A DNA stretch of 64,000 nucleotides from assembly GCA_951406725.2 (NCBI GenBank), contig OX597820.1:110546001-110610000 (forward strand), written 5' to 3'. Shown here one piece after another: positions 25,285 through 58,127 of the stretch (position 1 is the stretch's first letter; the number at the start of each line of letters is the position of its first letter). The position numbers and the translations under genes were made by a program. This DNA is from Octopus vulgaris. Taxonomy: Eukaryota. Under the pieces are notes generated by a model. The model saw nothing but the letters and a program-made list of their open reading frames with translations. It had not been told where the DNA came from and did not search any database.

Positions 25285-28200
25285 TTACAGGCGAAACCTG
25301 AGAATTGGTCCATTTATACTGGCCATTCTTGCACAATTCACCCACCTTTCAGAAAACTTGCTATCGGACAGCACTCTCCTCTCTAACCTCATCTTCCTTT
25401 TCAAGTGAAACTTGAAAAAGTTGATGAGGCCTTGACCAAAGAGGAAAGTGTCTGACTTTAGCCCTTTCAAATGGGTCCACCATACAACCTCTTTTGCCAC
25501 AGCCACTAGGCACAGGAAAACTGCCTTGCCCTCCTTGTTAAAGGAGGTCGGCGGGGCAATCTTCACTATGGATTCAGCTGATAGCCGGATCCGTCCTATA
25601 CATGACAGTAGCTGTTCGACATAAACCCATAGTTCAGCAATACTCAGGCACTGGACAAGTGCATGCAGAACGGTTTCGTCGTCCTGGCAACACCTCGGGC
25701 AGGCCAGGCTGACGGCACTTCCGTGCCGGTAGAGTTTATCCCGAACAGGCAGAGCACTGCCAGGCGAGCGACCTCTGGAAACTATCAGTAACCACAGCAT
25801 CAGTAACCACAGCATGCCAAGGCCTCCGTTCAGCGGTCGTTGACAGCAGATGGATCGCCTGACCAGTGGCACCTGACCCTTCCACAAAAAGTCGAAGAGC
25901 AGGCGTACCAGCTTGGACAACCAGCGGTCGGGACAAGGGACGACGGTCAAGCGGTAATAGATGACAGTTGCGATGTACGCATTTGCCACCTCCACTCGAC
26001 CTTTCAGGGACAGCTTCCTCTCGGCCCATTTCTGGGTGAGATTGGCCACCCTGCTCGTCACTTCTTCCCAGTTTCTATCCACCTGGAGGTCCGGACCGAA
26101 CCAGACCCCGAGCAGTTTAACGGGTCCGTCTGTCCAGCGCCCTACGATGCTGTTGGACGGCATGGGTTTGCCTCTCCAGGTGCCCAGTTGCAAGCCCACG
26201 GACTTTTCCGCGTTAATCTTTGCCCCTGTCACCGCTTCGTACTCGTTTAGCGTCTCGCCAATCAGGTCAATGTGCCTGTGGCTCGACACCATCACGGTGA
26301 CGTCGTCGGCATAGGCAGACATGCTGTTTCCACCTCCTAGATCGCGCGGGATACTCCTCAAAGTCTCAAACTTGTGCAGTAATGGCTCGAGAGTCAATAT
26401 GTACAAGAGGGAGGAGAAAGGGCATCCTTGGCGGACCGAATGTGAGATGTCAAACGGTTCCGAAAGGTGACCGTTCACCCGTATCACCGAGCAGATGTTG
26501 CTGTATAAAGTAGCGATCCACCCGCGGAAGACTGGACCGAAGCCGGCTGCCTTGAGAACAGCTGCCAGGTACCAATGGTTGACCCTATCGAAGGCTTTAC
26601 TCTGATCTAAATTGATCAAAGCCCCACCCGCGCCAGCATCGTTACCCACCCTCTCTATGATGTAGTGCATGAGATGGAGGTTGTCGTGTATCGACCTGGT
26701 CTTGCCAACCAGTATGTCCATGACAAGCGCCAATCTCTTGGCTAGCACCTTGGCCAAAATCTTCAACTCTGCATTGAGCAGAGTGATGGGCCGAAAATTC
26801 CCTATAACGTCCCCCTTGTTTGGGTCCTTTCTCAGCAAAGCCACCACCCCTCGACAGACAAAAGCAGGAATTCTCCCGTTTTGCAGTAGGCGTCTGCCAA
26901 CAGGCCCGCAAACAAGTCTGGCATTGAAGTGTAAAGCTCGTAGGGCAGACCATCCAAACCCGGCGATCTACCTCTTGTGCAACTCTTCATTGCTTCCTCC
27001 ACTTCCCAGGCAGATATCGGTCCTTCGCTGCACTCTGCCTCGCTGCACTCTGCCTCGCTGTCCGATAGTTGCGGTAGGCCGTCCAGGTACACACCAAAGT
27101 CTGTACCGTTGTCCGTTCCACCGATCGTCCTAAACAGTTGAGCAAAGTGCCGCTGAAACACCGCACACATCTGCTTCGGTTCGGTAACCTCGTGCCCGTT
27201 CTGGTCCACCAAAGACCGAATGGTTGCTTTGTTGCCTTGCTTCGCCTCCACCACGCGGGCCCATCGAGCGGCTCTAGTCCCCTCCCCGCTTAGCGAACGT
27301 GCCTTAGCTCTGACAACGCAGCCTTCATGTTTGGTGTCAAAGTGTTGGTCGAGGGCCAACCTTGCCGCCAACACGTCGGTCGCGATGCCAGTCTCAAGAG
27401 CCTCGTCTAATTTCTTAACTAAATCCCGCTCTCTCTTCCTACGTTCAATCACTAGTGACTTACTAAACCTAATCGACTCTACTCTAATTGCTCTCTTGAG
27501 TGCAAACCACCAGTTGTTGTTGATGATTGCCCCCGTGAGCGCCCACTTAACTAGTAAACTAATCCGGTCTCTGTAAGCTTTGCACGCCGTTAACGATGCG
27601 TTCAGCTTCCAGTAACCAGGTCCCTGTCTATGTAGCCGATCTAAGTCGACCGTAGATCACGAATTTGTGGTCCGTGTAGTCAACTAGGTGGAATTGTGAA
27701 CACCCTATGCTGTCCTTATCCGCTGGCCTACAAAACACTCTAAGTACGATCTAGACGACCCGATGCGATTGGTCCAAGTCCATATTGGCACATTCGGCTT
27801 GTCTAGTCGAAACCTGTCGGACAGCTGAAAGCGTCCGAGTAGGTTGGCGAGGCTCTTGCACCCCCTCTCCTATCAGATGCTCCTCTGCCCACCCAGTCGA
27901 AACGTTCGCCTAAGACAGCGTTCCAATCCCCAACTAGCACTAGAGTGCGTGACGTTCCCAGGAAAACTTCCAGACGTTTGAAATAATCCGACTGTCCTGC
28001 TCTTGTTGGAGCGTAGGCAGCCAGCAGTCTGAAAGCACCGCCGTCACTACCGTCTACGTCAAGGACCACCAACTTACCTTCTGGATCTAGGAAGACTGTC
28101 CTTATTTTCAAGTCCAGGCCCTTCCGAAACAACACCGCAGTACCACCACCGCTCGCTCCCGGCCGACACGGAGATAGAAAGATCTTGTATCCGCCGAAAA

Positions 28201-28351
28201 GGGCTGCGAGTTCCTGCGGGTTGGAGAGCCTGGTTTCACTAATGGCTGCTACATCCACATCATGAAACCTCAGGTCGTTTAACAGGTGACCCTGTTTCCA
28301 AGGTGACCCGAGGCCTTTCACATTCAAGCAACCGATTCTAAGTTTTGCCAT
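25285..28351 (-). pseudogene. Tx1-type ORF2 (APE endonuclease, RT, C-terminal Cys motif), frameshifted
   Basis: LNVKGL, ISET, VGDWN, SPGLDGLP, FRPITLLN, LDQSKAFDRV, VRQGCP, YADD and CPRC...ETVLHA. Confidence 0.92.
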
Positions 28352-30301
28352 GTTTCAAAGGTGACAAAAAATAAAAGGAGAAAAAGGCTCTACTTACTGT
28401 TGTTGGTAGTGGGGGTGGCTTGTGCTTTTGCACGGGTGTTTCCACAATATTTTTATAAAGTTTCTTTGAGAAACTTCTCCCTAGCGATCCGACATAGTTA
28501 GGGAATATCTGTTTTATGTCACTGTATGTTTTTTGGTTAATTTTAATGGTGAGAATGTGTGCTGGTGGTGTGTTGTGTGTAGGTATAATGAAATCTGTAA
28601 TGTTTGTGCTTGTGTTGTCTATTATATATGAAACGAGTTTTTCATTTTTTCTGTTTATGGCTGTAATCGTGTCTGTGTGTGTTGGAGTGTGTGGCAGTGG
28701 CAGTAGTGGTGTCGAAAGTGTTGTTGTTTGTTGTTGTGAGTGTGTGTTGTTGTTGTTGTTGTTGATGTTGGGAAGCACTATTTGTTCGTGCTTCCCCTGT
28801 GTGTCGTTTTGCTTCTTCCTCCTCTTCTTCTTCGGAAGCACTGTATGCCATTCACCTTTCTCGGTATCAGTGCTCGCACAATCCGAGCTGTCCTGATCCG
28901 GAAAGGGGATAGCTGTCGGGTCCGCTTCAGCAGCAGGGTGAAAAATTGTTGGTTCTGCTCGTAGCGGTGGTGTTGCTGTATCTGTTGGTGATGGTGACGG
29001 TGTCGGTGATACTTCTTCCTTTTTTGTTGTTGTCTTTCTTGGTGCTGGGGTTGGTGTTGGTTTAATGGTTGTTGGAGGTGGTGTCGTTCGTCGTGGTGGT
29101 GGTGATGGTGTTGGTGATGTGGCAGCCTTTGGTGTTTCTTGCTGTTGTTGTTGTTCCTGCTGCTGCTGCCTCTTGCCGTCTGCCTCCATTCTTTTCTTGT
29201 AAATAGGGCAGTCCCTCTTTAGGTGGCTTTTGCTGCTGCAGTGGTAACATTTTGGCTTTCGCCCCTCCACAGCAACATGCAGCCTGGTGCCGTCCGGCAA
29301 ATTTACCGAGTCAGGTATGGCATTAATGTTTTCCTGCTGGATTTGTACCAGCATTTGAACTCCCATACCTGACCAGTTTTTTTCCTTCACTCTTCGTACG
29401 TCCAGAATAGTGGCAGTGTCCTCTATGCCATAGAGGACAGCCGCCACCAGCCATGATATATTTAGTTCGGGGGGTACTATGTCGATTTTTATTTTCGTGA
29501 CCCTCCGCCGAGGTACGTTGGAACTAGGAACAAATTTTCATTTTGCAAGGGCGAAATGGCATGCGCCCTTGCATCCTCCTCCATTGGGAAGCGAACCTCC
29601 ATGGTTCCGAAACGCTTCCCTCTGGTGACATAGCTCTTTTTGCCCCATATGGGCTTCAGAGCTATTTCCAATTGTTGGGGTGTTGTGTTAATTAGTCTTT
29701 TGTTTTTCTTGTCGAAAACCTTGTAAAATATTGTCTTCTTGTTAGTGTCATGTATGAGTTGTTGAGGTGTATTGAGGAAAACACTGTTCCCCTCTTTTCT
29801 CAACAACTCCTTTGCGCTTTTGATTTCCTCCATCGTAACATTCACCTCCTCCGAGCTTTGTTTTGCAGCGGAGGCGAAATTGCTACGATGGCTTGCTGTG
29901 TTGTTGCTGGTGGTGGTGTCGGTGCGGTTGCTGGTCATTTTCCTTCCCTCCTTCTCCGGTACTGGAGCACTGGTGGAGGGAAGAGAAGGAAAATCTTCGA
30001 TGACGTCAAAGGTGACGCCATCGTTGTCGCTTTTCTTTGGAACGCTCTTTCTTCCCTCCTTCTCCGGTACCGGAGCATTGGTGGAAGGAAGAGGAGGAAA
30101 ATCTTCAATGACGTCGAAAGTGACGTCCTGGTTTTCTTTCTCCTTTTGAATGCTGCACATGCTTAGAGCTTCGAAAGGAGGATCTTTGTTGCCTTTTATG
30201 GCACGAAGTAGGCGGTTTGGAAATGTTTTTGACAATGTGTGTGTTTGCGGAGGGTGTGGTGTTGGGAGAAGGGAACAGCCGACTGCTCGCTTCATAGCCA
30301 T
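28338..30301 (-). pseudogene. Tx1-type ORF1 (one frameshift near 29490)
   Basis: MAMKRAV start; CYHCSSKSHLKRDC zinc knuckle; Q/T/P-rich C-terminal half. Confidence 0.85.
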
Positions 30302-32571: not shown

Positions 32572-33841
32572 CGAGGGACGTTCAATAAGTAATGCCCCTG
32601 ACCCACTTCCCAAAGCAGTAGAGCAACGACACTTGGCAAAGTTATTAGTCTTTTTCTACATAGGAACCACCCAGAGTTACGCATTTCTCCCATCGTTTGA
32701 TGCAGCTCTGAAGACCGTTTTTGTAGAAGACCCCAGCTTGGTCCTCCAACCACGACGTGACTTCAGAAATCAAGGCTGCATCATCTGGGAAATACTTTCC
32801 TTTCAAAATCAACTTCATGGCTGGGAAGAGGTGAAAATCAGAGGGTGCAAGGGGAGGAGTTCATAGTTGCACGCCTGTGCTTCTGATCTGGCGACACGCG
32901 AGTTGTGGACCGGAGCATTGTCCTGCAGGAGGAGGATGCCTTTGCTGATCTTGCCCCGCCTCTTGATTTTGATAGCTTCTCTTAATTTCCTCAAAAGTGA
33001 AGCATAATAGGCTCCTGTAATTGTGGTACCCTTTGCCAGGAAATCTGTTATCACTACTCCGTCCTGGTCCCAGAAGACTGTGAGCATAACCTTGTCAGCA
33101 GAGGGCTGCACCCTTGCCTTCTTTGGAGGAGGTGAGTCACGGTGCTTTCACTGCATTGACTGGGCTTTGGTCTATGGATCATAGTGATGGACCCAGGTTT
33201 TATCCTGTGTGATCAGTCTTTTGAAAAATTTTGACTCATCTTCTTGGCACATCTCCAAATTCATCCTCGAGCACTCAACGTGTTCTTGCTTCTGGAAAGG
33301 TGTGAGCAACCTGGAAATCCATCTGGCAGACACCTTTTGCATATGCAAATGGTCATGAATGATAGTTTCCACAGACCCGGTACTAATCTTGACCTTATGG
33401 GCTATTTGGCGAATAGTTATGCGTTGACCTTCCAAAATGGCAGCCTCAACTTGACGGACAGACGTCTCATCAATGGCAGAAGGGGGCGACCAGATCTGGG
33501 AGCAGTTTCCACAGAGTTCCGACTATGTTTGGATTCACAATGCCAGCGTTTTACAAGGTCATATGATGGGGCATCATCACCATAAGTTACTTTCATTTCA
33601 TCAAAAGTCTCCCGTGGTGTGCGTCCTTTCAAATACAAAAACCAGATCACTGCTTGACACTCAACAGGCTCTATTTCACACTTGACTCAGTTCAAACACC
33701 TGTAAATCAGAAACCACAATTAGTTCAGAGCTGTAATTCGCCACTTAATCTATAGAGGTATAAATAAGTGCACATGCAAAATTTCAGCTAGATCAAACAA
33801 CTGCAAGTGGGTCAGGGGCATTACTTATTGAACGCCCCTCA
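32572..33841 (-). mobile_element. Full-length (1270 bp) mariner element with a disrupted transposase
   Basis: ~37-bp TIRs (cgagggacgttcaataagtaatgcccctgacccactt / aagtgggtcaggggcattacttattgaacgcccctca); TA on both sides; WISRLL, TQDKTWVHHYDP and LLQDNAPVH. Confidence 0.95.
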
Positions 33842-35104
33842 TAGTTATTGTTTTTGCATTAGCATCATTAGCAGGTGTGTTAATTTTGTTTTTGTACCTC
33901 TCGTCTTCATTGTTATTATTTCTGTTGGCACTAAGGCAGTGAATTTGCAAAATCATTAACATGCCAGACAAAAATTTTCAATGGCATTTTGTTCATCTTT
34001 ATGTTCTGAGTTCAAATTTTGTTGAGGTCAACTTTGCCTTACATCCTTTCGGAATCAATGAAATAAGTACCAGTTGAACACTGGAGTTAATGTAAGTGAC
34101 AACCCCTACCGCAAAATTTCAGGCTTTGAGCCTATAGTAGAAAGGATTATTTCTGTTGGCACTGGTGGAGGCAGTACTTTGGTTTAATGTGTAGAAGGCA
34201 GTGTTAACATTGCTGTTCCAAACCATGTTTAAATTCCTCTGGTTTTCTGTCGAATATTTCAATGTGACGCTTAGAAATTTTTAAAAAAGAAATACGTAAA
34301 TTTCACACTTTTACATATTTCTACAATTCTATCCCAAAAGGTGAAAGTACAATGAAAGTGAGGAACTCCTCAGAAGCTTGGTCACTTTACAAGAAGCACA
34401 GAGTAAACAGTTGTAAACATAGTCTTTTGAAATAGTTAAAGCAGACAAAATTTACAAGCAACTTGAAGTGACGTGTTATTGATAACAAAACAACAACTGG
34501 CACTTAGCCAACAATTTTGAGGGGTCAGGATTAATCAATATCACCAGCCTCAGTACTTGACTGGTATTCATTCATTTCATCGATCTTTAAAGCATGAAAG
34601 GCAAGTTGACTTTGGCAGTGTTTAAGCTCAGGAGAAATGCTACGAAGCATTTTGTCCAAGATGCTAACAATTCTGCCAGAATACTGCCTTAATAATATTT
34701 TCTTACCATAGACATGAGGCTTAAAATTTGGGATGGGGGACAGTTGACTAATATTTATTTTGACTCCCAACAAGATGAAAGTCAAAATTAACTTATAACA
34801 ACTATTTCTAAAATATGCAAATGGGGGTGAGGTTGAGGGAGTTGATAATATTTGATCCCAATACTTCACTGGTACTTTATTTTATTGATACCAGAAGGAT
34901 GAAAAGTAAGTCGACCTCAGTGGAATTTGAACTCAGAACATGAAGAGACGAAACAAGGTATTTTGTCTGATGCTTTAACAACTATATCAATCCACTGTCC
35001 TTTGGTCACTAGTACTAATAACTAAGACAAAGAGAAAATAGAAAGTTGATGAATTAATAACAAAGAGGAATTAATAAAAATGATGAGTTTATAACAAAGA
35101 TGAA

Positions 35105-35110
35105 TTTATT
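35105..35110 (-). promoter_or_regulatory. Candidate polyadenylation signal of PRP38A
   Basis: AATAAA about 80 nt after the stop codon, followed by U/GU-rich sequence. Confidence 0.5.
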
Positions 35111-35188
35111 TACAAAGAGATGATGAACCGGAGTGGTTTACTTTGGTTTTAATGTTTTTACAAACACTAAAACTTGAATGCATTCACA

Positions 35189-35390
35189 CTAAGGCCTAAG
35201 AGGGGCCATCCCAAGCCTGGCTCTGAGTTCATTGGCCTCTCGAATCTCATCTCGGCCCCCTCTATGACCTCTGTCTCTGTCTCTCTTGTCATCACGGTCA
35301 CGGTCACGCTCACGGCCTCTATCCCGGTGCCTGTCAGTATCTCGGTTGCGTTCTCTGTGATCCCGTTTGGCTTTCTTACTGCGTTTCTTT
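35189..35390 (-). CDS. PRPF38A: PRP38A last coding exon (RD/RE-rich tail plus HIND-like motif)
   Basis: tttcag acceptor, phase 2; KKRSKKAKRDHRER...DEIREANELRARLGMAPLRP*; in frame with the upstream exons. Confidence 0.88.
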
Positions 35391-37019
35391 CTGAAATTTT
35401 ATGAAAATATTTATAAAAGTAGCAAAAATATGAAATAGAAAGTTAGATATAGCATATCTGTATATGTGCTTTTGTTGGAGAAAGAGGAACGAGTAGATAG
35501 AAAGAGAAAGAGAGATATTATAAGAAAAGGAGTGGAAGTTATGAGAGGGAAGAAAGGAATATGAGAGAAAAAGGAGAAATGAGGGAAAGAGAAGAAAGTG
35601 CCAATGGGGGAGATAGAAGAAAGATGGAGTGTAAGAAAGAGGGAGAGTGAAGGCAGGAGGGAAATGCAAATGTGAGTGAGTGTATGCAAGCTTTAGTAGC
35701 AGGTAATAAGTTTACAGTGAATCAAGCCAGTAACCTGTCTTTTGGCTTTTGTTAATTTGGTATGCTACAAAGCTCCATTCTATTTACATGTAAATGTAAA
35801 ATTAATTTTCACTCAACATTTGTATTGATATATATATATTGTTAGTTTGTTGTTTTTAACTATTTACATTTCTGATTAACCTTTTCAAATATAGAAATTA
35901 CACAATTTGATTTTACTTTTTTTTTCTATTCTCCAGATACAATGAATAATATTGTGTTGTACCACCCAGTAAACCTAAGTGAAAGGTGATGCTTTGTGAA
36001 GAAAGACTTTGTGAAAAGTGTTGTAATAATAATAATCCTTTCTTCTATAGGCACAAGGCCTGAAAGGGGTTTAGTCAATTTTATCAGCCCCATTGCTAGA
36101 CTGGTACTTATTTTATAGATCCCAAAATGATGAAAGGGAAAGTTGATCCAAGTAAAATTTGAACTCAGAGCTTAAAGAGGGATAAAAATTCCACTAAGCA
36201 TACTAATGATTCTGTCAGCCTGCTGCCTCAGTAGAAGTAGTAGTAACACTAATAATAATAAAACTTTGGCAATGCGAAGTGAATAGAGTATAATCTACTG
36301 AATGCCCAAAGACAGCATAAATAAGATGAGAAGAATGGCTGGACATTAAAAGGTGTAACTTGATGTATGTTGAAGAGGAAGCAGCTATACTGTTTTGGCT
36401 GCACATGATGTATGGGTGACACATGTTGGGTAAAATATGCTGGCAGTGAAAGGTGTCCTTGTCAAGTGAAGGACTCCCAGATCAAAAGAAGAGCAAGGTT
36501 GATATAGGAAGAAGTAATCAGAATGTTGAGCTTCAGATATGAGAAGATATATAATTTGTGCTTCATTTCTGCATGGCAAAATGAATATTATGAAGGTAAT
36601 GGACTACTTATCCTGAATATAGTACATAAAATAAGTAATGCATGTACACATCTGTACTTCATGGCCCCTTGAGTGGTATGTCCATTTTCCAAATGCTGAT
36701 GGAGATACTACATTAGTGTGGAATATAGTATTTTCTCACCTGTGGCTAATGATCTTACTGTTTGAAGGCCTTTCTACAATCAATGGAATAAATGCTTGTA
36801 TTTATTATGCCACTACCACTCATGAAAATGTTATCCAAACTTAAAATCTTGCTCCCACCCCATCTCATATTTGTTTCAACAGTATTAACACAAACAAACA
36901 TGTCTTAGCAAACACACAGTAAAAAAATATTTTGCTTAACAAACATGATAAAGTAATTGTCATCAAATAAGCATAAGATAAAAATAAACAATCAACATAA
37001 AGTTTAATGTTTTAGTTAC

Positions 37020-37044
37020 CTGTCATCATCTCTGTGCCTCGTAA
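37020..37044 (-). CDS. PRPF38A: PRP38A 25-nt micro-exon
   Basis: tttttcag|TTACGAGGCACAGAGATGATGACAG|gtaact; converts phase 1 to phase 2, as the flanking exons require. Confidence 0.82.
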
Positions 37045-37560
37045 CTGAAAAACAGAAGCAAACATTTTTCAGTCAACATCTTTAAATTTGAAAGTGAATT
37101 CATAAAGTAGATAACATAACAGCTTATTGCTTCAGATTTTAGCCAATCCATTGTCTATTCTAAAATGGTCAGTAAAACTCCGAAGTTACTTCTATGATGA
37201 GCAAGACACATTTCCAGAAGAAAAGATAAGAAAGAAATGAAGAAAAAAGCAGAAGCTGAAACATAGCTTTTAAACAATCGAATGGATTTGGTTGGCTAAC
37301 ATGACGGTGTTATAACATCTGACATGAAAAGGACTAAGTATAGCATATGAGAGAGGTGAGGATACCAGACAGTAAGCGAGAGAATACTGAATGAAAGTGT
37401 GCAAGAAGAAAGTGTAAGCAATGACAAGTATTTCTCAGACTGATGGTTAAGGCACTTATTTACTTAAAACTACTGTTCCACCTAATTAGAACTCTAAATG
37501 CAAACAATGAAATATAATCATACTTTAATAAGAAATGTTTAAACATTAAAAGGTACTTAC

Positions 37561-37631
37561 CAGGTGAACGATGGCGGCGATCTCTGTTTCTAGAACTACT
37601 TCTTCTTCTGCTAACAGGGCTTTTTCTATCT
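37561..37631 (-). CDS. PRPF38A: PRP38A RS-domain exon (71 nt)
   Basis: ttttacag|...|gtaagt; DRKSPVSRRRSSSRNRDRRHRSP. Confidence 0.88.
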
Positions 37632-38789
37632 CTGTAAAAGTAACAAATTAATGAATTGTTACAAAAATACTCTGGTTTGGTTAGTGCAACAGATAACAAA
37701 AACAGTAAGGTACTGTAAAAACAAGAGTCAACAAATTATATCCTGGCATATGGTAACAAATGTATCGGGTGAGGGCCTATACATGCGTTTAACTCCCAGT
37801 AGTACTGTCTACTTTATTATGAGTATATATTACAGAGTGCAATGGCTCCCTACTGTGAAATAGTGTAGAAGTATATTAATGAGAGTCATAGATTATATGC
37901 TTCTAGACATCAGTCATGGAGTTTGTGGTTAATACTCTGTCACTAGAACTGTACTGTAAGCATGACCAAGATACTTATTTAACTCAGAACCGCTTCAATC
38001 ACCTAGCTGCAGTAGGTAAGTAGTTGAAATGGAGTGGTATGGTTTACAGTTGTAAACATTACCAGTAACACTTTAAAACTGATCAATGTTTTGTTAACTT
38101 ACTATGATAACTTTATGATTTCCTATAAGTTTTGGCCACAAATAGAAGTGCACACATAACTACCTTACTTTTAATACTACTACAATAAATTAAGGCTCCA
38201 GGATTGAAAATTAATTATCTAAGTTTTGATGTGCAAGACAATACGAAACAGAACATACTGACAGTTTATTATACACCATGACCACATTCTAACCCATCTA
38301 ATGTAATAACATACCCACCAAACAAAATTAAATGACACTATTTATATCGTGTTTTTCTATTTAACTGATTACTTATTTCAATGTCTGCTCTAGAAACACA
38401 AAAATTACAAGTTTTTTTTAATCAATGACTACTGAGCAAAATAAATTTCTTTACAACTTTTACAAGTTCTATGGATATTAAATACTCAGTTCACTTTAGC
38501 AGCTCTATTTGATATGATCAATTGTTTATATATAAAAACAAAACCAGCAATATGAGTAGTAACATAATTTTTTCAGATATTCATGGCTATAATAGTTAGT
38601 AGTGTACAAAAGACATCCTAATGCTGACTATAAATTGTTCTCTCAGAAAAAAAAATCCCGTTCATGTAAGTATGACATGCACAATAGAGTATCACATATG
38701 TAATATGGTGAGTTGAAAAACTTCCATTAACTGAAATCCCCTTTGCAAACTAAACTCTCTCCAAAAGGTCTTAAAAGCTAAAAATCTCT

Positions 38790-39409
38790 TCTCTCTATAT
38801 ATAAACGGCAGTTTGTCTGTGTGTGTTTCTGTGTGTCTGTTTGGTTGTACCCTCACCCTGACCACGGCTTTCAACCGATTCTGATGAAACTTGATACACA
38901 CATAGCCCAATGTCATAATTCATAACTAACGCAGCGAAAATTTTGAAAAGTTCCCCCAGTTCTGAAAAAAATTGATAAATTCGACATGGGGTCAAGAATC
39001 AGAAACACAAACCACAGACTGTCTAGGGGGCGCAACTCGGCCTTTTTAACTCTGACCTACCAATCCACTTCAGGCATTCTCAGTTTCCTGTTAAACTCTG
39101 CTTCGCAATGTCCATCAATAAATCCCAAGGCCAAACGCTACAAGTCGCTGGTTTACATTTGGGCGAACAGTGCTTCGCCCACGGTCAACTCTACGTGGGC
39201 TGTTCACGCGTTGGGAGGCGCAATGATGTTTTCATGTTTTCGCCCAAAACAGCTAGGAACATCGTATATACAGAGGTATTCGAGTGAAGACAAGACATTG
39301 CAACGTCTACATGCACCTTCGTTCCCTGGAGGGAAAGGACTACATTAGGATTAGTCGTTGCCTACTAGGGGCTCTTACATACCCGGGCAACGCCGGGCTA
39401 TGCTGCTAG
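38790..39409 (+). mobile_element. Internally deleted Helitron retaining the helicase C-terminus
   Basis: TC-TATATA 5' end; FPVKLCFAMSINKSQGQTL...HGQLYVGCSRV (Pif1-type motifs); CCCGG-hairpin then CTAG-T at 39406-39410. Confidence 0.9.
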
Positions 39410-39499
39410 TAATGAATAAAAGAGATAACTCCAACAATATCAACTAATACAGAGTTTCATAAAATTTGGGAGTGGATCTTGGAAGGAAAGAAGGAAGGA

Positions 39500-40125
39500 A
39501 AGAGGTGGTAGGCAGCATTACCAAATAACTAGAAGGACAACTGGATGACCGGTATGGTTGACTAAGAGTGAAGCAGAGAGGAACAGGCTGGTGCATGTCT
39601 TGCAATGTGAGGATCAGAGGTGTGAAGTGTTCAAAATCACATGAGAGAGAACCAAGATGTCAATGGCGAGAAATATATTTGAAATGATGAAGGCATACAT
39701 GTCATCATTATGGAAGACAAGAAAGTGATATAGAATTGCTAATATGAGAGGCTGTTAAGAGCATGGAGAATGCCTGGGATAATGAGGCACTACCTTATGC
39801 TGACCTTAAAGAGAGACCAGCAATTCAAATTGATAGCAGTGAAGTAACTAAGGCAATCGAGGACAGGAAGAGAGACAGAGAGAAAGCAGCAGGCCCATCA
39901 GAGATAATTGCAGAGATGCTCAAAATATCCAGTAAAGGATTACCACCTAAATAGTTAATCAAGTTAAGGCATTTGAAAGGGTATCACAAATAATGATATT
40001 GTGGTCACTAGGGAAACTAAGCATTGAGGAAGAGTTTGTGAGAGCCAAACAAACCAGGTACAAAGACACAGTAAATAAAGTGGGAGTCAACAACGACTTC
40101 AGTAAGGAATTTAGTGTGAGGGCTA
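39500..40125 (+). pseudogene. Old RTE fragment
   Basis: ENAWDNEALP...PAIQID...KAAGPSEIIAEMLK. Confidence 0.7.
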
Positions 40126-40791
40126 GGTATGTAAAGAAGTTTTATAGAAATGTCCAATGGAAAAGCATAGTTATGTTTGAATTAGGATATGACCTGACAG
40201 TTATAAACATTACTAGGTGTGGTGTGTATTTAAAAAAACTGTACATGATAATGAAATTAAACTTGAGAATTAAGTATGTGGATGGCTGCTAGAATGCAAT
40301 GAAAACAATATTAAGGGGTGGAAATGCTTAAAGAGCTACATAAAATGGAGTTGTGTTTGTGTAAGAACTAATATTTGTTTGTATGTATTAATTATAAGGT
40401 AAAAATAAAAAATAGGAAATTAGTTGTTAATAGTACAGATTTAGATCATAAATACTTGCTGTGGCTATAAATATCTAAAAAGAATGTTCAGAGGTTTAAT
40501 TAGAGGCAAACTGAAAATAACAATGTAGGGGAGATGATGGAGCTAGGAATAAAGAGTAGTAAAAAAAATTTTAATTATAAGTATCGATTGACCATGTTTA
40601 GGTATAAATAAAAGTATGAGTTAAGAAGCTAGTTTGGCATAAAGTGAGAGGGAAGTATATAGTAATATTATGTAATTAATAAATATTGAAGTAATAGGAG
40701 ATTCAGTTCTATATTTAAGAGATAAGGAATTATGCACATTATTTACATTATTTACATTTGACGGATATTTGTCCTCATTTTGTTTGTTGTT

Positions 40792-40833
40792 AACATGTTT
40801 TGGCTGATATACCCTCCAGCCTTCACCAGGTGT
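40792..40833 (-). ncRNA. Damaged hammerhead motif in a short repeat
   Basis: CUGGUGA-A-GGCUG(GAGGGUAUAU)CAGCC-AAAAC; two core substitutions. Confidence 0.5.
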
Positions 40834-41589
40834 CTTGGGGAAATTTCGAACCTGGGTTCTCATTCTTAAGGTATTTTTCGATGTTGTTGTTATTATTACT
40901 ATTATTATTCAGGTCACTGCCTGGAATCGAACTCGGAATCTTGGGGTTAGTAGCCCACACTCTTAACCACCATGCCATATGCCTATAGGCATTAAGAATA
41001 TACCAAAAAAATTTTTTTATGAGTAGTGGGTGCACATAAGTATACAAAATAATTCATATATAATATCATATAAAAAAAATATAAGGGAAAAAAATTTGTT
41101 AGTATATACTAATACATTAGAAGAGAACGTATCTGCAAATTAGTATACATAGGTATAGGTATTCTAGTTGATTTTTTACACAGATATAGGTATTCAAGTT
41201 GTTTTATTTGAGGGTGTACATGAAAGAAGGAACAGCGTACAAAAAATAAATAAATAAATAAATATACTCATACTGGTGCAAAGAGAGAGAGAAAAAACCC
41301 CACACATAAAAAATTTTTTATATATACACACACACACACATATATATTTATATGTATGTATATATAGTGGTAAATATATATGTGTGTGTGTGTGTGTATG
41401 TGTGGAACATGTATATGTATTAAAAATACATATTAGTGGTAACATTTAGCACATAATATAAGCACATAAGAAGAAGAAGAAAAATCTGACATAGAAAGGC
41501 TATATATACAACGTATAGAAGGTGGTAGAGGCCTTATACAGCTGGAAAACTACAATAAAATAACCACCATAGGACTGCAAAAATATCTA

Positions 41590-42648
41590 CTTCAGAAGGA
41601 AGGAAAACTGATACAAATAGTGGCAAAACACGAGCAAAACAAAAAACTGTTCTCAGTATTTAAGGAAGCTGACAAATACAAACAAGAAATCATGCCACCT
41701 AACAAATATGAAGAAGAAGATGAAGAAACAACAAAAGCTATAAAACAAATGAAATCTAAACTAAAACTAGAACAGCAACGAACCATGATAAAATGATGGC
41801 AAGAAAAGCCCCTTCATGGCAAATACTGGACTAAACTAAACGCAAAAGAAATAGACAAAGAAAAATCCCAGCAATGGTTGAGAAGCTCAGGACTCAAAGC
41901 AGAGACAGAGGGATTTTTAATTGCAGCACAAGACCAAAGCCTCCCCACCAGAAATTACCAAAAACACGTAATGAAAAGAAATATAACAAGTAACTGCAGA
42001 ATATGTGGAGATGGACAAGAAACAATAAATCATATTATCTCTGGCTGCCCAGTCCTGGCTAAGAAGGAATATATTCACAGACACAACAGAGTTGGGACCT
42101 ACATACACTGGAAGCTATGCCAACATTACAGAATAACAACAGAAAAAAGATGGTATAGGCACACACCAGAAAAGGTCACAGAAAACGAGAAAGCAACCAT
42201 ACTCTGGGATATGCCGATACACACAGATAGAGAAATTAAGGCCAACAGAGCAGATATAGTTGTCAGGGATCATGAAGAAAAAAATGCTTTCTAATTGATG
42301 TATCAATACCAGCAGATGACAACGTGTCTCTAAAAGAAATGGAGAAACTTTCAAAATACAAAGACCTGGAAATAGAGGTAACCAGAATGTGGAATCTAAA
42401 AACAGAAGCAATTCCTGTCATAGTAGATGCATTAGGCATGATAAAAAAATATTTAGACAAATACATACCAAAACTTACAAACACATATAACATACAGAAA
42501 ATTGCACTACTAGACACTGCACACATCCTATGCAGAACACTTTCCATACAATAACCATCAGAGCATCACAACAAATCACAGCACATACCCAAGGCACACA
42601 GAGCTGCGCTCGGTAGTGAAGTGAAAGCACGCTATAAAAATAAAACTA

Positions 42649-42697
<49 letters not shown>
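41590..42697 (+). mobile_element. 5'-truncated R4/Dong-like LINE with an (AAT)n tail
   Basis: CRICGDGQETINHIISGC, RHNRV, NRADIV, IDVSIP and EKLSKY (restriction-like endonuclease), then 3'UTR and (AAT)n. Confidence 0.85.
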
Positions 42698-42939
42698 GAT
42701 ATACACACACAATGACAAATAGGACTAATATACAGAAATGCACACATGGTTGTAGGCAAGTTGGACACCAAGAGGTATTATATGTGTTTGCATATATCAG
42801 GCATAAAATGTAATTAAATATCAGGTAGATTGGCAAGTAGCATAAAACAGTATTAACATAGGTAAGTGGAAGAGGTTTTTTGTTAAGGACATATTATGCA
42901 AATAAAATAAATTTTAAAAAATTAATAATTAATAAAAAC

Positions 42940-43600
42940 TTTTAAAACTCCAAATATGCTAAAATATTTAATAATAAAAAAATCAGATTTGGATTTTCAG
43001 TCTCTTCAAACCATTTTAGGATAATCTCTTTTAACAATAAGAAACTGGACGTACTCTATAACAAAAAAACTTCACCAAATATACCTAGCAACTCCAATAA
43101 TTCTATGACTAACAACTACTATTATAATAACAACCAAAACTCCATTATCTCTAATAAATATAGACATAACAACATAGTACCACTCAATAATTTAAATTGT
43201 GAAGTAGATAGAAATTGCAAAATGAAAGAAGTAGTATACCAAGCAATCATTATTACTCATAACTCCTAAATTTATATACATTGGTTGCACAAAAAATTCT
43301 ATAAAATCACAAATCAATAATCACAGATCTTCATTTAATGACCCTAGAAAAGAGAATAATACAGGTCTATCTAAAAAAATTTGGCAACTCAAAAGAAACA
43401 ATATTGATTACTCAATATCTTAGAAAATCCCTATCTTCTGCTCCCTCTTATAGATATAATAACAAAATTTGTAGGTTATGTTTGGGAGAAAGCTACAATA
43501 TGAGAATGAATGGACATCTGGTTAATACTAGGGATGAAAAGTTTTTTTCATGTAAACACATGAGCAAATACCTTTCTATTAAGCTCAAATAATTCTTACC
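42940..43600 (+). pseudogene. Penelope-like GIY-YIG endonuclease remnant
   Basis: VVYQA...YIGCT...NHRSSF...LSKKIWQLK...CRLCLGE across frames. Confidence 0.65.
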
Positions 43601-43929
43601 CAACCCCTTGAATTTTTTACTAACATTCCTATTTCTAATATCTTGATCTTTTAAAAAATATCTCTATACATTAACTCTTTCTATGGAATTCGATTACTCA
43701 TCACATCCTCTGCACATCATATTATCTTACACTATATTGTGATATATATTTGTTTGACTCTTCCCTCTAATAATTACATGACCCACATTTTCTCCAAATC
43801 TCCTGACACCTCCCTTTCTTTCAATATATTTTCTATAATTTCCTTTAGTATATAATATACCTATATTTTTTGTAATTCAATTTATTTGCATAATAATAAA
43901 ATTAACAATAACATTAAACACCAGGAATG

Positions 43930-44860
43930 TACAAAAAAAAGACTTCCTCATATACCGAGGAGGGGGGATCTCTAGAAGTAGTAGATAGTTTCCGTTAATT
44001 AGGCAACCAAATTAGTAGTTGGGGTGATTGTTCCAAAAGCATAGCTGCTAGAATAAGAATAGACTGGGTGAAATTCAGAGAGCTACTACCTCGTTAATAA
44101 TGAAGGGCCTCTCTCTTAGAATCAAAGGCAGATTGTATGAAGCCTGTGTACAAACAGCTATGCTACATGGCAGTGAGACATGAGCTGTGATTATTGAGGA
44201 AATGTGAAGACTTGAAAGAAATGAAGCTAGTATGCTTCGCTGGATGGGTAATGTCAGTGTGCATATACAACAGAATGTAAGTGATCTGAGAGAAAAACTG
44301 GGTATAATCAGAATCAGATGTAGTGTGCAAGAGAGAAGACTGCGCTGGTATGGCCATGTAATGCATATGAATGAAGACAATTGCATCAAAAGGTCATTAT
44401 CTCTAATTGTAGAGGAAACATGTGGAACAGGCAGACTCAAGAAGAAGTGGGATGAAGTGGTGAGAAAGGATCTACAGGTGTTGGGACTCACAGCAAGGAT
44501 GACAGAGGATTAAGACACCTGGTGGCTTGCTGTGCTAGAAAAGACATCAAGCTAAGTAAAAGTGTGGTTGCCCTTGCATACAGCCTTGTCCCCTGCAACC
44601 TTCCCAGTTGAGCATCTCTAATCTTGAGGGCTCATAGGTGCTGGTGGCATGTAAAAAGCACCTGTGTTGGTGCTGCATAAAAGCACCCAGTACACTTTGT
44701 AAAGTGGCTGGCATTGGGAAGGGTATCCAGCTGTAGAGACCATGCCAAAATAGGCATGAAACCTGAACAGCCCTTCAGCTGGTTAGCTTCTGTCAAACCA
44801 TCGAACCCATGCCAGCATGGAGAACAGACGTTAAATGATGATATAATGATGATGGCGATG
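43930..44860 (+). mobile_element. RTE 3' fragment
   Basis: MLRWMGNVS...LRWYGHV, 3'UTR and GAT tail. Confidence 0.85.
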
Positions 44861-45400
44861 ATATGTATATGTGTGTATGTATACATGTGCGCATGTGTAT
44901 GAAAGTTGATATTCCACAGCAGTCAGTACTTGAGTGAAACTTAGTTTTATGATGTTTACATCCCTTGTTGATATTAAACTGGTTACTTTGCCCTTTTGTA
45001 GATTGAGGAATAAAAAAATAAATCACCGACCTAGGGTAGTGAATTGATGGAACTGTTAGAGTACCAGGCAAGATACGTTGTGGTATCTGTTGTAGCCCTT
45101 GTGTTTCGATAGCAACTACTGTGACAACAGTAGTTGTAGCAACCCAAAAGCAGTGACAATTCTGTTGGGAGGAGTGGAGACTTGCTAGTGTAGGCAACTG
45201 CTAATCTTCAAATATAGAAAAAAAAAAATTTTTTTTAAAACTTGCTTAAGCCTGTGCACACAGACATAATGTTAACCCAGAGGAGACCTAATCTGGCTTT
45301 GGGGTTAAGAAGCCACATAACTGAACTTAATTCCTCTGGTTAGGAATTCAAATTTATTTTCCAATCTAAAAATCTGTAGTCAACAAATGACAAGCAGTAC

Positions 45401-45516
45401 CTTCTGTGTGGAGAGCGACTTCTGTTTCTTCTCCCTCGTGGGGATGGGCTTCTGTAACTTTTATCTTCTTTGTGACTCCCTCGTTTCCTTTCTGGTGTTG
45501 GACTACGGCGAGGCTC
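45401..45516 (-). CDS. PRPF38A: PRP38A RS-domain exon (116 nt)
   Basis: ttcag|GAG...AG|gtactg; EPRRSPTPERKRGSHKEDKSYRSPSPRGRRNRSRSPHR; phase 0 to 2. Confidence 0.88.
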
Positions 45517-46289
45517 CTGAATTCACAAAAACGACAATGCATTTTTATTCCTGTTTTGTAAGCATGGAGGGCATGAAGGGAAGGTTGTATTAAACATAAC
45601 TAATATGGCTGAGGATGACTAGTAGCCTGGCCCAGTAGGAGATCCAAGCTGTAACAGCTAGAGGGAGAGAGATCTGCACAAGCACTATGCTGTATGTTAT
45701 TTAAGAAGCAAGAGATGATACAGGTGGTGGATCAAGAGGGGATAGCGACAGATGGAGGTAGAGCAGAAGGTAGAGAGTGATGGACAGGAATGGAGGTGCA
45801 GTTTGATGGGAAATATCAATATGGGAGGGGGAAAGAAGAAAGAGATAAGAGTGGCTCAGGGATGATAGTTCGGGGAGAGACGATGAGCAAGGTATAGGAA
45901 CAGTGGGGAGGGAGATGTAGAGGTACGTAAGGGGTAGCTATAGTGAATAGGCATAGTGAAGGTCATAAGAGGGCACTGGGAATGATAGTAGATTCAAGAT
46001 GAAGATGGCAGAAGAAAAGAAGAGGAGGAATAGCATGTGAGAAAGGATGATAATAAGAATGAAAGCTGGAAGTGGAGAGAAGGAAGGAACTGGCAGTACA
46101 AAAAACTAGGGGATGTAATGTGTGTCAAGGAGGGGTGGTTTTTGGGTGAAAGGAGCAGGGAGATGAGATGTGGTGAATGCTTGAAGAAGTATGAGTGTAG
46201 GGACAGCACTCAGCATATGGGGAAAGGAGGATGAGTAAGGAGATGAGATGTGAAGGTGGTATGGGTGTAGGGACAAGGTCCAGCACATA

Positions 46290-47582
46290 CAAGCATAGGC
46301 AAAATTTTTTAGAACCTCATATTTGCTCTTATGATTGGGTCTTCTCAAACACGGCAAATCACAAATCAGCTTGGTTCTTTGTTATTGCATCCATGAAGCT
46401 CTGCATTTTTACTTCATTCCATGTCTTCCTGGGGTCTCCCTCTTCTAGAACATCCAACCACTTTAAGCAACTAGTATTTCTTTACTCAGCTGTCTTCATT
46501 CAAACACATCACATGACCAAATCAATGCAGTCTTCTCTTTTGCACACTACATCTGATTGTGCATAATTTCTCTCTCAGTACATTAGCACTTTGTCACACA
46601 AGCACACTGACATTGCACATCACTTGGAGAATACTAGTTTCATTCCTCTAGTTTCCACATGCCCTTTCTATTCAGATACTACATCTCATGACCACAGAGC
46701 ATTGTTGTACATACACAAGTATCATACAATCTACCATTCACTTAGAGCAAGAGAAAGATGTTTGTTGCCAACCAGGATAATAGCTCTCTGAACTTCCTCC
46801 ATCCTATTCTTATTCTAGCAATGAGAACTGTTAGAACATCCCCCATCACTGCTAATTATATTACCCAGGTACAGAAACTATCAACCACCTCCAGGGTATT
46901 TGAGGAAATCTATTTCCCATGTTTTCTTAGTATTTATTGCTCTTGTGCATCATCCACATATAGTCTACATTATCCATTAGCTTTCCTGTTATTCCACCGC
47001 ACCACTTATGTGTCCATAGTTTGCGCTGGGTACACTATATGGGGTTCTTGCCAACACCTTTCCTACATATTGAGCAGGGCTATTGACCTGAAGGGGATAG
47101 AGACCAGTCTGATTTCCTGCTTACTAGAATTTGGGTCTTTGTTAAGTTAACTTTAAGGCCCTTTAATTCTGGAATTTCTTTTCGAATTCTGTTACAGATT
47201 CTAGTATAAGAGAGATCATCACCATATAGTTATTCCCAGGGGCAACCTGTCTTAAATTCCTTTCTCCTCCATTATGGCCTAGAGGACAATAATGAATAGG
47301 AAGGGACTGAGAATTGAGGCCTGATGAATTTCTACTTGTATTCTAAATTCATTACTGAACTTGTTAACTCTTACTTTACTGACTGCACCCATGTATATGG
47401 CTTGTTCTAGGCTGTATCCCACTCTGCCAGATACTTTAAGTATCTCAGTGGTAATTCTTGATGGACTTGTTGTCTTACCCTTAATTGCCCTATCTATCAT
47501 TAACTAGGATAGCTGATCCCTCTCTCTATTGGGTCAATGTTAGAGAGACTCCCTTGCTCTCATGCCATTTCCACATTTAACC
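46290..47582 (-). pseudogene. Older RTE copy, opposite orientation
   Basis: LSPFLFIIVL, a CPWE-type motif and C-terminal RTE sequence on the minus strand. Confidence 0.75.
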
Positions 47583-50456
47583 TTCCCAGGCGAAGAATTT
47601 ACCTCACAACATAGACTGGTAGTTAATGACTTTAGGATCAGGACTAAGAGAATGACCAGAAGACGACCAACGTGGAGAAGAAGGATCTGGAAGCTTAAAG
47701 ATCCTGCGAATGGACAGAGACTTAGGGACATATTACTTGAAGCCTTTGACGAAGTAGAAGGGGATATAGCTTCACATGGGGTAGAAGACAACTGGAGGTC
47801 TCTAAGGGACAACCTGCTGAGAGCCATTGACCAGATCTGTGGCTGGTGCAAAGTCGCCTCTCGACCCAAAATAACGTGGTGGTGGAACAATGTTGTAGAC
47901 AGGGCTATTAGAGAAAAGAGACAGGCTTGGAAGGACTGGGAAAATGGTGGTAGCAGGGAGTTGTATTAGACTGCCAAAAGAGAAGCTAGGAGACAGGTTT
48001 ATTTAGCCAGAGGGGAAGCAGATAAGAAAAAATTTGCCAATGTTCTGCGCCGTGAGGACCAAAGACTTGAGGTATTGTTGCAAGACTGTTGCAAGACAGT
48101 GTGTGAGAGAGAATCGTGATGTGGTAGGAGAGAAATGTATTCGCATGGATGATGGCTCACTTGCGCTGAATGAGGATGCAAAGAGAGAGGTATGGAGACA
48201 CCATTATGAGAGGCTGCTAAATAAAGAAAATGAATGGGATAAAGAGAGTCTGCCGAATGTCGACCCAACAGAGGGACCAGCTATCCGAGTTGACAGTTCC
48301 TTAGTAGTTAAAGCAATTAGAAGCATGAAGACAGGGAAAGCCCCAGGCCCATCAGGAATTACTGCAGAGATGCTTAAAATATCTGGTAGTGTCGGCTATA
48401 GCCTAGTCACCCGTATAGTTAACCAGGTGATATACGAAGGAGTCATATCCAATGACTGGTGTAGCAGCACCATAGTCAACTGTTACAAAGGTAAAGGTGA
48501 CGCTTTAGATACAAATAATTACAGAGGTATCAAGCTTTTGGATCAGGTAATGAAGGTTACGGAGAGGATCATAGCCCAACTTATTAGGGAGAGAGTCAGC
48601 TTGGATGAGATGCAGTTTGGTTTCATGCCAGGGAAAAGCACCTACGATGCCATATTTCTGGTGAGACAGCTGCAGGAGAAATACCTAGCTAAAGATAAAC
48701 CCCTATACTTAGCTTTTGTGAACTTGGAGAAAGCCTTTGACAGGGTCCCCTGATCCCTTATCTGGTGGGCGATGCAGAAACTGGAGATTGACGAATGGTT
48801 AATAAGGGCTGTACAGCCCCTTTACAGAGAGGCTGTTAGTAAGGTTAGGATTGGCAATGAGTATAGTGAAGAATTCCTGGTAGAAGTAGGCGTCCACCAA
48901 GGTTCAGCCCTCAGTCCCCTTTTATTCATCATAGTCCTCCAGGCAATAACAGAGGAATAACGGGTTGCCTCTAGGAGCTTCTGTAAGGCGATAACGGAGG
49001 AATTCAAGACAGGATGCCCCTGGGAGCTCCTATATGCTGATGACCTTGCTCTAATTGCTGAGTCACTATCAGAACTAGAGGCAAAGTTTCAAGTGTGGAG
49101 ACAAGGATTAGAATCGAAGGGCCTTAAAATCAACCTAGCTAAAACCAAAGTCCTAATATGTAGGAAGGCAGACAAATCACAAACACCTTCAGGTAGATGG
49201 CCCTGCTCGATCTGTAGAAAAGGCGTAGGTAGAAACTCTATAAGATGCACCAAGTGTAAACTATGGACACATAAGAGGTGCAGCAATATCAAAGGAAGGT
49301 TAACTAGGAAGATAGTTTTTGTATGTGGCAGTTGCTCAGGAGCAATAAACACTGAAAATGCTCAGAGACCAACTTCTGCTACATTCCAGGGAGAAAAACT
49401 AGAAATTGTTGATAGCTTCTGTTACCTAGGTGACCAAGCCAGTAGCGGGGGCGGGTGTGCTGAAAGTGTAACTGCTAGAGTTAGAATAGCCTGGGCAAAG
49501 TTCAGAGAGCTATTACCTCTGCTGGTGACAAAAGGCCTCTCGCTCAGAATAAAAGGCAGACTGTATGACACATGTGTATGAACAGCCATGCTACATGGCA
49601 GTGAAACTTGGGCCGTGACTGCTGAAGACATGCGTAAGCTCGCAAGAAATGAAGCCAGTATGCTCCGATGGATGTGTAATGTCAGTGTTCATACTCGACA
49701 GAGTGTAAGTACCCTGAGAGAAAAGTTGGACCTAAGAAGCATCAGTTGTGGTGTGCAAGAGAGACATTTGCGCTGGTATGGTCATGTAGCGAGAATGGAT
49801 GAGGATAGTTGTGTGAAAAAGTGCCACACCCTAGCGGTTGAGGGAACCTGTGGAAGAGGTAGACCCAGGAAAACCTGGGACGAGGTGGTGAAGCACGACC
49901 TTCGAACATTAGGTCTCACCGAGGAAATGACCAGAGACCGAAACCTTTGGAAGTATGCTGTGCGTGGGAAGACCCGGCAGGACAAGTGAGACCATAACCC
50001 GTGGCCTCTACCTGGGACGTAGCCAGTCCAATTATGCATACCTTTCCTTCTTATGACACAAACCCTACTTGTGTAGACCTGTTGAGGCAAGTGAAAATCA
50101 AAATCGAAATCGATCAACATCAATGGAAATTGTAGCAGTGATACCAGTGCCGATGGCACGTAAGAGAACCATCCGAACGTGGCCGTTGCCAGTGCTGCCC
50201 CGACTGGCCTCCGTGCCGGTGGCACGTAAAATGCACCATCCGATTGTGGCCGTTTGCCAGCCTTGTCTGGCACCTGTGCAGGTGGCACGTAAAAAGCACC
50301 CACTACACAAACGGAGTGGTTGGCGTTAGGAAGGGCATCCAGCTGTAGAAACACTGCCAGATCAGACTGGGCCTGGCGCAGCCTTCTGGCTTCCCAGACC
50401 CCAGTTGAACTGTCCAACCCATGCTAGCATGGAAAACGGACGTTAAACGATGATGA
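47583..50456 (+). mobile_element. 5'-truncated RTE LINE (copy A)
   Basis: KAPGPSG, NYRGIKLL, QFGF, LEKAFDRVP, GVHQGS, LLYADD, PHD-like insert, 3'UTR and GAT tail. Confidence 0.95.
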
Positions 50457-51329: not shown

Positions 51330-51465
51330 GTTTTTGCCAACCATATCCACTCACAAGGCTTTGGGCAACTCGGAGCTATAGTAGAAGACACTTGCCCAAG
51401 ATACCAGACAGTGGGACTGAACCTGAAACCATGTAGTTGGAAACCAAACTTTTTAACCACTGAGG
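51330..51465 (-). mobile_element. tRNA-related SINE head
   Basis: GGTTCAGGTTCAGTCCC B-box-like motif followed by cttgggcaagtgtcttctactatagc. Confidence 0.65.
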
Positions 51466-51490
51466 CATGTCTATGTCTAAAAAGTGATAC

Positions 51491-51595
51491 TTTACAGCAT
51501 TTAGGTTTCTTAAATGTTCATCCATCTAAAGAACTAACAAGGCTGAATGTTGCTTAACTTTGGTGACTAGATGAGAACATGATATGGTTGTAAGC
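51491..51595 (-). pseudogene. 5S rRNA pseudogene
   Basis: GCTTACAACCATATCA...GTTCTCATCTAGTCACCAAAGTTAAGCAACATTCAGCCTTGTTAGTTCTTTAGATGGATGA...TGCTGTA follows the metazoan 5S sequence with a short internal deletion. Confidence 0.8.
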
Positions 51596-51638
51596 AACCA
51601 TATGTTATTTTTAGATAACAACTGAAACAATTACTTAC

Positions 51639-51740
51639 AATAATTTCTTCTTCTTCTGAAGACTCTACATCTTCAATGTCTTCCTCTAAAGCACTTATTC
51701 GTGGTTCTAATTGATTCGTATCTTCTAGCACACTCCTTTT
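51639..51740 (-). CDS. PRPF38A: PRP38A exon (102 nt)
   Basis: ttcacag|...|gtaagt; KRSVLEDTNQLEPRISALEEDIEDVESSEEEEII matches the PRP38A KRxVLE..LEPR.SALEED motif. Confidence 0.95.
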
Positions 51741-58041: not shown

Positions 58042-58127
58042 CTGAATGCGGGGCAAAATAATGTCATAAATTCTCTCTTCTCTCAAAAGTTCATCTATGA
58101 ATTCATCCATGTGCACAATTTCAAATT
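58042..58127 (-). CDS. PRPF38A: PRP38A exon (86 nt), end of the conserved PRP38 domain
   Basis: ttattag|AA TTT...CAG|gtaatc; FEIVHMDEFIDELLREERIYDIILPRIQ matches the PRP38 H.DEFIDELL...R..DIILPR motif. Confidence 0.96.

What the first reader, a model, noticed from the sequence alone, without database searches (positions are those of the whole stretch)
35192..35251. HIND-like (Hub1/UBL5-binding) motif at the C-terminus of an animal PRP38A
Seen: the spliced ORF ends DEIREANELRARLGMAPLRP*. Known: the Hub1-interaction domain of Snu66/SART1 has the pattern IEETNxLRAxLGLKPL with an essential Arg. Plant Prp38 carries this motif at its C-terminus, and as I recall human PRPF38A does not. Inference: in this mollusc-like genome, UBL5 may be recruited to the spliceosome through PRP38, in addition to or instead of SART1. 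That would be a plant-like arrangement relevant to non-canonical splice-site choice.
Basis: partly seen in the sequence, partly recalled or inferred. Interest (0 to 1): 0.72.

Follow-up and report, generated by a model that had tools for sequence, protein, structure and literature searches.

The report
Ancestral PRP38 UBL5-tether, lost in vertebrates
A cephalopod splicing gene, PRP38A, ends in a short motif that likely binds the small protein UBL5; this arrangement is already known from plants, Plasmodium and the worm C. elegans, and here it is the norm among the invertebrates sampled and absent from all vertebrates sampled, so this copy is ordinary.

Summary
The motif is real but ordinary. 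Window 35251-35192 (minus strand) encodes the last 20 residues of a 337-aa, nine-exon PRP38A. Spliced contigs from four studies join this exon to the upstream exons. The peptide matches Pfam HIND at E=4e-4, below the 25-bit cut-off, and keeps the salt-bridge Arg. The genome's UBL5 keeps the partner Asp22.

It is not a plant-like oddity. C. elegans PRP-38 has a C-terminal HIND that pulls down UBL-5 (PMC7615767). Among the 120 listed homologues, 43 of 44 named invertebrates carry it, including amphioxus and tunicates; 0 of 55 vertebrates do, including lamprey and hagfish. Chytrids, amoebozoans and a green alga also have it; two hoverflies do not.

It most likely acts as a second, probably weaker, tether that brings UBL5 to the PRP38-SNU23-MFAP1 module of the B complex. 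Binding was not tested. Whether this species' SART1 keeps its HIND stays open: a transcript piece exists, but the gene was not located. I found no paper stating the vertebrate-stem loss.

The parts
35192..35251 (-). HIND (Hub1/UBL5-interaction motif), residues 318-337 of PRP38A; Arg327 corresponds to human SART1 R127
35189..35390 (-). Exon 9 (terminal coding exon): Arg/Asp-rich stretch, HIND, TAG stop
35067..35188 (-). 3' UTR covered by the spliced contigs; AATAAA starting at 35110
   Evidence: contigs cannot fix the true RNA end
37020..37044 (-). Exon 8, 25-nt microexon of the RS region
   Evidence: joints in 4 of 4 runs; AG/GT ends
37561..37631 (-). Exon 7, RS region
45401..45516 (-). Exon 6, RS region
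51639..51740 (-). Exon 5, end of the conserved N-terminal part and acidic linker
58042..58127 (-). Exon 4, end of the PRP38 domain (PF03371 positions 136-165). Exons 1-3 lie outside the window at window-equivalent 85839-85710, 78297-78138 and 68066-67945

Best explanation
This is the single-copy PRP38A gene of a cephalopod, and its spliced last exon encodes a HIND motif that likely binds UBL5 and would act as a second tether bringing UBL5 into the spliceosomal B complex. SHOWN here: gene model, splicing of the exon, motif match, conserved Arg, UBL5 gene with Asp22, wide conservation of the motif. FROM LITERATURE: the HIND helix binds UBL5 through an Arg-Asp22 salt bridge plus hydrophobic contacts; HINDs on Prp38 bind Hub1/UBL5 in Arabidopsis, Plasmodium and C. 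elegans; in the human B complex UBL5 Asp22 contacts MFAP1 R358 and UBL5 lines the 5'-exon channel. INFERRED: the motif sits at the end of a long, likely disordered RS/RD tail, captures UBL5, and hands it to MFAP1, a partner of PRP38 in the same module. It probably works in addition to a SART1 HIND as in C. elegans, and probably binds more weakly, because it has Ala for Thr123 and Asp for Leu118. INFERRED history: present in the eukaryotic and animal ancestors, lost on the vertebrate stem and separately in some flies and other lineages.
For: Splicing and frame. Motif. Of the 8 UBL5-facing residues listed for human SART1 (L118, I120, T123, L126, R127, L130, L132, L135; PMC4141198 passages), a gapless alignment gives 5 identical, 1 conservative (Met for L132) and 2 changed. 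UBL5 gene with Asp22 on G000:C23. 43 of 44 named invertebrates, 0 of 55 vertebrates and 15 of 21 unnamed proteins carry the motif, always 1-2 residues from the C-terminus, while the RS tail before it is barely alignable. 68 of 149 diverse representatives score >=12 bits at the C-terminus, among them chytrids, amoebozoans and a green alga. Binding by orthologues: PMC7615767, PMC6857937. Hand-over model and rescue by tethering Hub1 to Prp38: PMC12830679, PMC10943123.
Against: No binding was tested or modelled for this peptide. It scores below Pfam's cut-off and lacks the Leu-Ser...Thr front half that 11 of 13 SART1 HINDs show. In C. elegans the PRP-38 HIND was negative in two-hybrid, positive only in a crude-lysate pull-down, and PRP-38 was not seen in the UBL-5 co-IP. 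The invertebrate count is biased upward: only the best 120 of 2416 hits were listed, ranked against a HIND-bearing query. Insects were absent from them, and two hoverflies, Seison and Capsaspora lack the motif. N, R, L130, G and L135 are invariant partly because the filter demanded them; only Pro134 (58 of 58) and Ala128 (56 of 58) are free tests.
Confidence: 0.8

Rival explanations
1. PRP38A is the only UBL5 tether in this animal, because SART1 has lost its HIND, as in plants.
For: No SART1 HIND was found in G000; plants show that the swap is viable.
Against: The genome searches are blind here: one search also missed the PRP38A HIND itself, and no SART1 exon at all was found, although a SART1-like contig is in 4 of 4 runs. 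C. elegans and Plasmodium keep both HINDs. 13 long SART1 ORFs from metagenome loci carry a canonical HIND (chosen for having one; one further 675-aa ORF, probably cut short, showed none).
Confidence: 0.07
2. The motif is a degenerate HIND that no longer binds UBL5 well and is kept for another partner or as a C-terminal helix of the RS tail.
For: Sub-threshold Pfam score; Ala at the Thr123 position in 51 of 58 homologues; weak C. elegans data; dispensable in vertebrates and some flies.
Against: The conserved positions are those that face UBL5 in the crystal structure. Orthologous PRP38 HINDs bind UBL5 in plant, Plasmodium and worm assays.
Confidence: 0.11
3. Artefact: the exon is not part of the mRNA, or the match is chance.
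For: The peptide is short and under the curated cut-off.
Against: Spliced joints in four studies; open frame; the Argonauta hians model is 312 of 337 identical and ends in the same motif.
Confidence: 0.02

Closest known systems
C. elegans PRP-38 C-terminal HIND, residues 301-318 (Kolathur et al., PMC7615767; passages and supplement 1 passages seen)
   Same: Animal PRP38A orthologue, HIND at the extreme C-terminus, UBL5 with Asp22; binding shown by GST pull-down
   Different: Other phylum; binding not tested here; SART1 HIND shown in the worm, untested here
Arabidopsis AtPRP38 and Plasmodium Prp38 HINDs (PMC6857937, PMC4141198, PMC8431670; passages seen; Mishra 2011 not held, known only through these)
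   Same: Same position and motif
   Different: Plant Snu66 lacks the HIND, so PRP38 is the only tether there; Plasmodium has both
Snu66/SART1 HIND, Pfam PF19252, PDB 3PLV and 4PYU
   Same: Arg and hydrophobic core kept; best PDB hit is yeast Snu66
   Different: N-terminal in a tri-snRNP protein rather than C-terminal in a B-specific protein; SART1 has Leu/Thr at positions 118/123 (11 of 13 each), this motif has Asp/Ala
Vertebrate PRPF38A
   Same: Same N-terminal domain, acidic linker and RS region
   Different: Ends before the HIND in 55 of 55 vertebrate entries

Membership tests
PRP38A (PRP38 family, PF03371) | N-terminal PRP38 domain | tested here: met
   4 exon hits over the cut-off on G000:C7; model 312 of 337 identical to Argonauta PRP38A, which scores 5e-69
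PRP38A (PRP38 family, PF03371) | A-type rather than the B paralogue | tested here: met
   Named top homologues are 38A; a separate, divergent PRP38-family gene lies on C21, read as 38B from recall
PRP38A (PRP38 family, PF03371) | Acidic linker then RS domain | tested here: met
   domain layout from PMC4712676 passages
HIND motif (PF19252) | Score over Pfam's 25-bit gathering cut-off | tested here: not met
   20.1 bits, E=4.2e-4. Only 2 of the 58 motif-bearing homologues carry the precomputed PF19252 label, so the cut-off misses this whole subtype; 14 of 20 members of alignment A1 (15 invertebrates, 5 vertebrates; members not listed) hit at E<=0.05
HIND motif (PF19252) | Salt-bridge Arg (human R127) | tested here: met
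   Arg327
HIND motif (PF19252) | Hydrophobic UBL5-facing residues | tested here: inconclusive
   Of 7 besides the Arg: 4 identical, 1 conservative, 2 changed (gapless mapping)
HIND motif (PF19252) | Partner UBL5 with Asp22 in the same genome | tested here: met
   4 coding exons on G000:C23, about 9298528-9289880, minus strand
HIND motif (PF19252) | Arg/Asp22-dependent binding to UBL5 | not testable with these tools
   Shown for orthologues only
Plant-type arrangement (HIND on PRP38 only) | SART1/Snu66 lacks a HIND | tested here: inconclusive
   SART1-like contigs present, gene not located

The most novel reading that the evidence does not exclude
Two-tether UBL5 delivery (SART1 plus PRP38) is the ancestral eukaryotic and animal state. 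The PRP38 tether, an Ala-type HIND that Pfam's cut-off misses, preloads UBL5 on the PRP38-SNU23-MFAP1 module and was lost on the vertebrate stem, after the split from tunicates and before lampreys and hagfish, and again in flies. Human and yeast spliceosome structures would then show a reduced route of UBL5 recruitment.
Probability: 0.45. Interest if true: 0.45.

Novelty: new member of a known kind. Interest (0 to 1): 0.2.

Why it matters
The locus itself adds one more species to a known arrangement. The distribution is the useful part: the PRP38 HIND is common across invertebrate phyla, mostly unannotated because it scores under Pfam's cut-off, and missing from the vertebrates sampled. That weakens the published suggestion that double HINDs go with heavy trans-splicing (PMC7615767), since molluscs, amphioxus and echinoderms carry the PRP38 copy too (their SART1 was not checked). 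It also gives a simple test: add the motif to human PRPF38A, or delete it in an invertebrate, and read 5' splice-site choice.

Tried and rejected
SART1 in the own genome: not found with Pfam PF03343, motif patterns (30, 36, 41, 57, 58, 75), protein queries (64, 67) or tags taken from the transcript contigs (71, 73). Of the 50 pattern matches, 20 were translated in context, all chance-like; the 7 matches equal its 7 control matches. These blanks do not show absence. The Pfam HIND genome search gave 5 sub-threshold hits, missed the known motif, and its top hit L007 looks like repeat DNA. A search for long HIND-bearing proteins found none. No run was on record as RNA. No complex prediction was run: UBL5 is split over four exons with no whole sequence on hand, and UBL5-HIND is a solved pair that would likely pass by likeness. 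Mishra et al. 2011 is not held; its text and supplement may already show invertebrate Prp38 HINDs. Earlier findings of this scan: none. Paper searches for a statement of invertebrate-wide presence or vertebrate loss found none (listings, with passages read from 9 papers). Rejected: mollusc-specific gain; horizontal transfer from plants (the motif is in cnidarian, nematode, echinoderm and invertebrate chordate orthologues at the same place).

Full report
Observation. The 60 bases at 35192-35251 read DEIREANELRARLGMAPLRP on the minus strand, followed by TAG. A Pfam PRP38 search of the own genome found four exon hits upstream on the same strand of contig C7, three of them beyond the window end, and two hits of a separate gene on C21. 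With the neighbouring 30 kb I built a nine-exon model. After correcting a 3-base boundary error, all eight introns are GT-AG and the frame is open: 337 aa, HIND Arg at 327, 312 of 337 identical to the Argonauta hians PRP38A model. The genome is therefore likely a cephalopod (inference).

Splicing. Contigs of four runs from four studies were laid on 34300-52500. X1, X6 and X13 each carry one contig across exons 5 to 9; X5 bridges three of the four joints. The listed exon pieces show no mismatch. The runs are only guessed to be RNA, but the joints skip CT..AC stretches, which are minus-strand introns.

Is it a HIND? Pfam PF19252 matches at E=4.2e-4 and 20.1 bits, under its 25-bit cut-off. The best PDB sequence hit is yeast Snu66, aligned on its two HINDs. 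A profile made only from 13 SART1 HINDs of metagenome loci (one such ORF confirmed as SART-1 with HIND) ranks this place first among 2636 six-frame ORFs of the window, 18.4 bits against 8.2 for the next. The human crystal structure lists eight UBL5-facing residues (PMC4141198, passages). Mapped without gaps, five are identical including the salt-bridge Arg, one is conservative, and two differ: Asp for Leu118 and Ala for Thr123. The genome's UBL5 keeps Asp22.

How common is it? Of 2416 homologues, the best 120 were listed and all 120 were examined. The motif ends the protein in 43 of 44 named invertebrates (molluscs, annelids, brachiopod, nemertean, chelicerates, myriapod, nematode, coral, echinoderms, hemichordates, amphioxus, tunicates; the miss is a partial Lottia model), in 0 of 55 vertebrates (lamprey and hagfish included), and in 15 of 21 unnamed proteins. 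The vertebrate proteins stop just before the motif and none scores with the SART1 profile. The list is ranked against a HIND-bearing query, so the invertebrate share is inflated, and it holds no insects. Among 149 further representatives at 50% clustering, 68 score at least 12 bits near the C-terminus; many misses are fragments or degenerate forms. Thirty of the 149 were looked up by name, chosen by me. With the motif: four chytrids, two amoebozoans, the green alga Chloropicon; krill has a degenerate form below my threshold. Without: two hoverflies, Seison, Capsaspora and an agaric fungus; models from Anopheles, crayfish, Macrostomum and sea urchin also lack it but look frame-shifted, divergent or incomplete. 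Only 2 of the 58 motif-bearing homologues carry the precomputed Pfam HIND label, so the subtype is mostly unannotated.

What is known. Kolathur et al. [quoted passage not shown] Arabidopsis and Plasmodium Prp38 HINDs bind Hub1/UBL5 (PMC6857937; PMC4141198; review PMC8431670; passages only). So an animal PRP38 HIND is published. I found no statement that it is general in invertebrates or lost in vertebrates, but the founding paper, Mishra 2011, and its supplement could not be read.

Mechanism. In the human B complex UBL5 and MFAP1 line a 5'-exon channel and UBL5 Asp22 contacts MFAP1 R358 (PMC10943123, passages). HIND binding and MFAP1 binding may be mutually exclusive, with Snu66 escorting Hub1 and handing it over, and fusing Hub1(D22A) to Prp38 restores alternative splicing in yeast (PMC12830679, passages). 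PRP38, SNU23 and MFAP1 form one module. The best reading is that the motif at the end of PRP38A's flexible tail captures UBL5 and delivers it to MFAP1, as a second and probably weaker tether beside SART1. Every step after 'motif present' is inferred for this species.

SART1. The gene was not found in the assembly by ten searches. Laying four runs on a foreign SART1 locus placed one contig per run (445-2714 nt) on the conserved C-terminal motif over 46 bases, with near-identical flanks, so SART1 is likely expressed. Its N-terminus was not seen, so 'in addition to or instead of SART1' stays open; C. elegans and Plasmodium favour 'in addition'.

Verdict. Real, correctly identified and ordinary: a new member of a known arrangement, interest 0.2. 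The side result worth keeping is the distribution, which points to an ancestral second UBL5 tether lost on the vertebrate stem.

Noticed in passing
G000 (whole assembly) versus runs X1, X6, X13, X14: A SART1-like contig is in all four runs, yet neither of two tags from it nor any SART1 query matches the assembly; the locus may be in a gap, withheld, or cut by introns at the tags.
   Followed up: partly
G000:C21:2300658-2302203, minus: Second PRP38-family gene, divergent from PRP38A; read as PRP38B from recall.
   Followed up: partly
G000:C23: about 9298528-9289880, minus: UBL5 gene, four coding exons, Asp22 kept.
   Followed up: yes
window 25288-29537, minus: Decayed non-LTR retroelement: RT domain PF00078 E=3.6e-25 with zf-RVT, upstream endonuclease-like and zinc-knuckle ORF pieces (by eye).
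   Followed up: partly
window 32818-33686, minus: Fragments resembling a mariner/Tc1 transposase downstream of the gene (recognised from recall, not scanned).
   Followed up: no
window 39027-39284 +, 41470-42551 +, 61706-62263 -: Intronic ORF pieces resembling a PIF1/Helitron helicase, a non-LTR element and a Penelope-like RT (from recall, not scanned); the first two are covered by many contigs.
   Followed up: no
window 37020-37044: 25-nt microexon in the RS region, included in 4 of 4 runs.
   Followed up: partly
L013, acceptor of exon 2 (window-equivalent 78297/78294): Tandem CAGCAG acceptor; the first AG gives the conserved sequence, the second drops one residue.
   Followed up: no
P0056, P0062, P0081 versus window 35390: Several vertebrate models diverge right after the same Arg, which suggests a last intron at the place matching this gene's last intron; vertebrates may have lost the HIND by an earlier stop in the last exon (inference).
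   Followed up: no
P0132, P0276: PRP38 labelled as the beetle Zophobas morio, on short contigs, with a non-insect-like N-terminus and a canonical HIND; possibly a contaminant.
   Followed up: no
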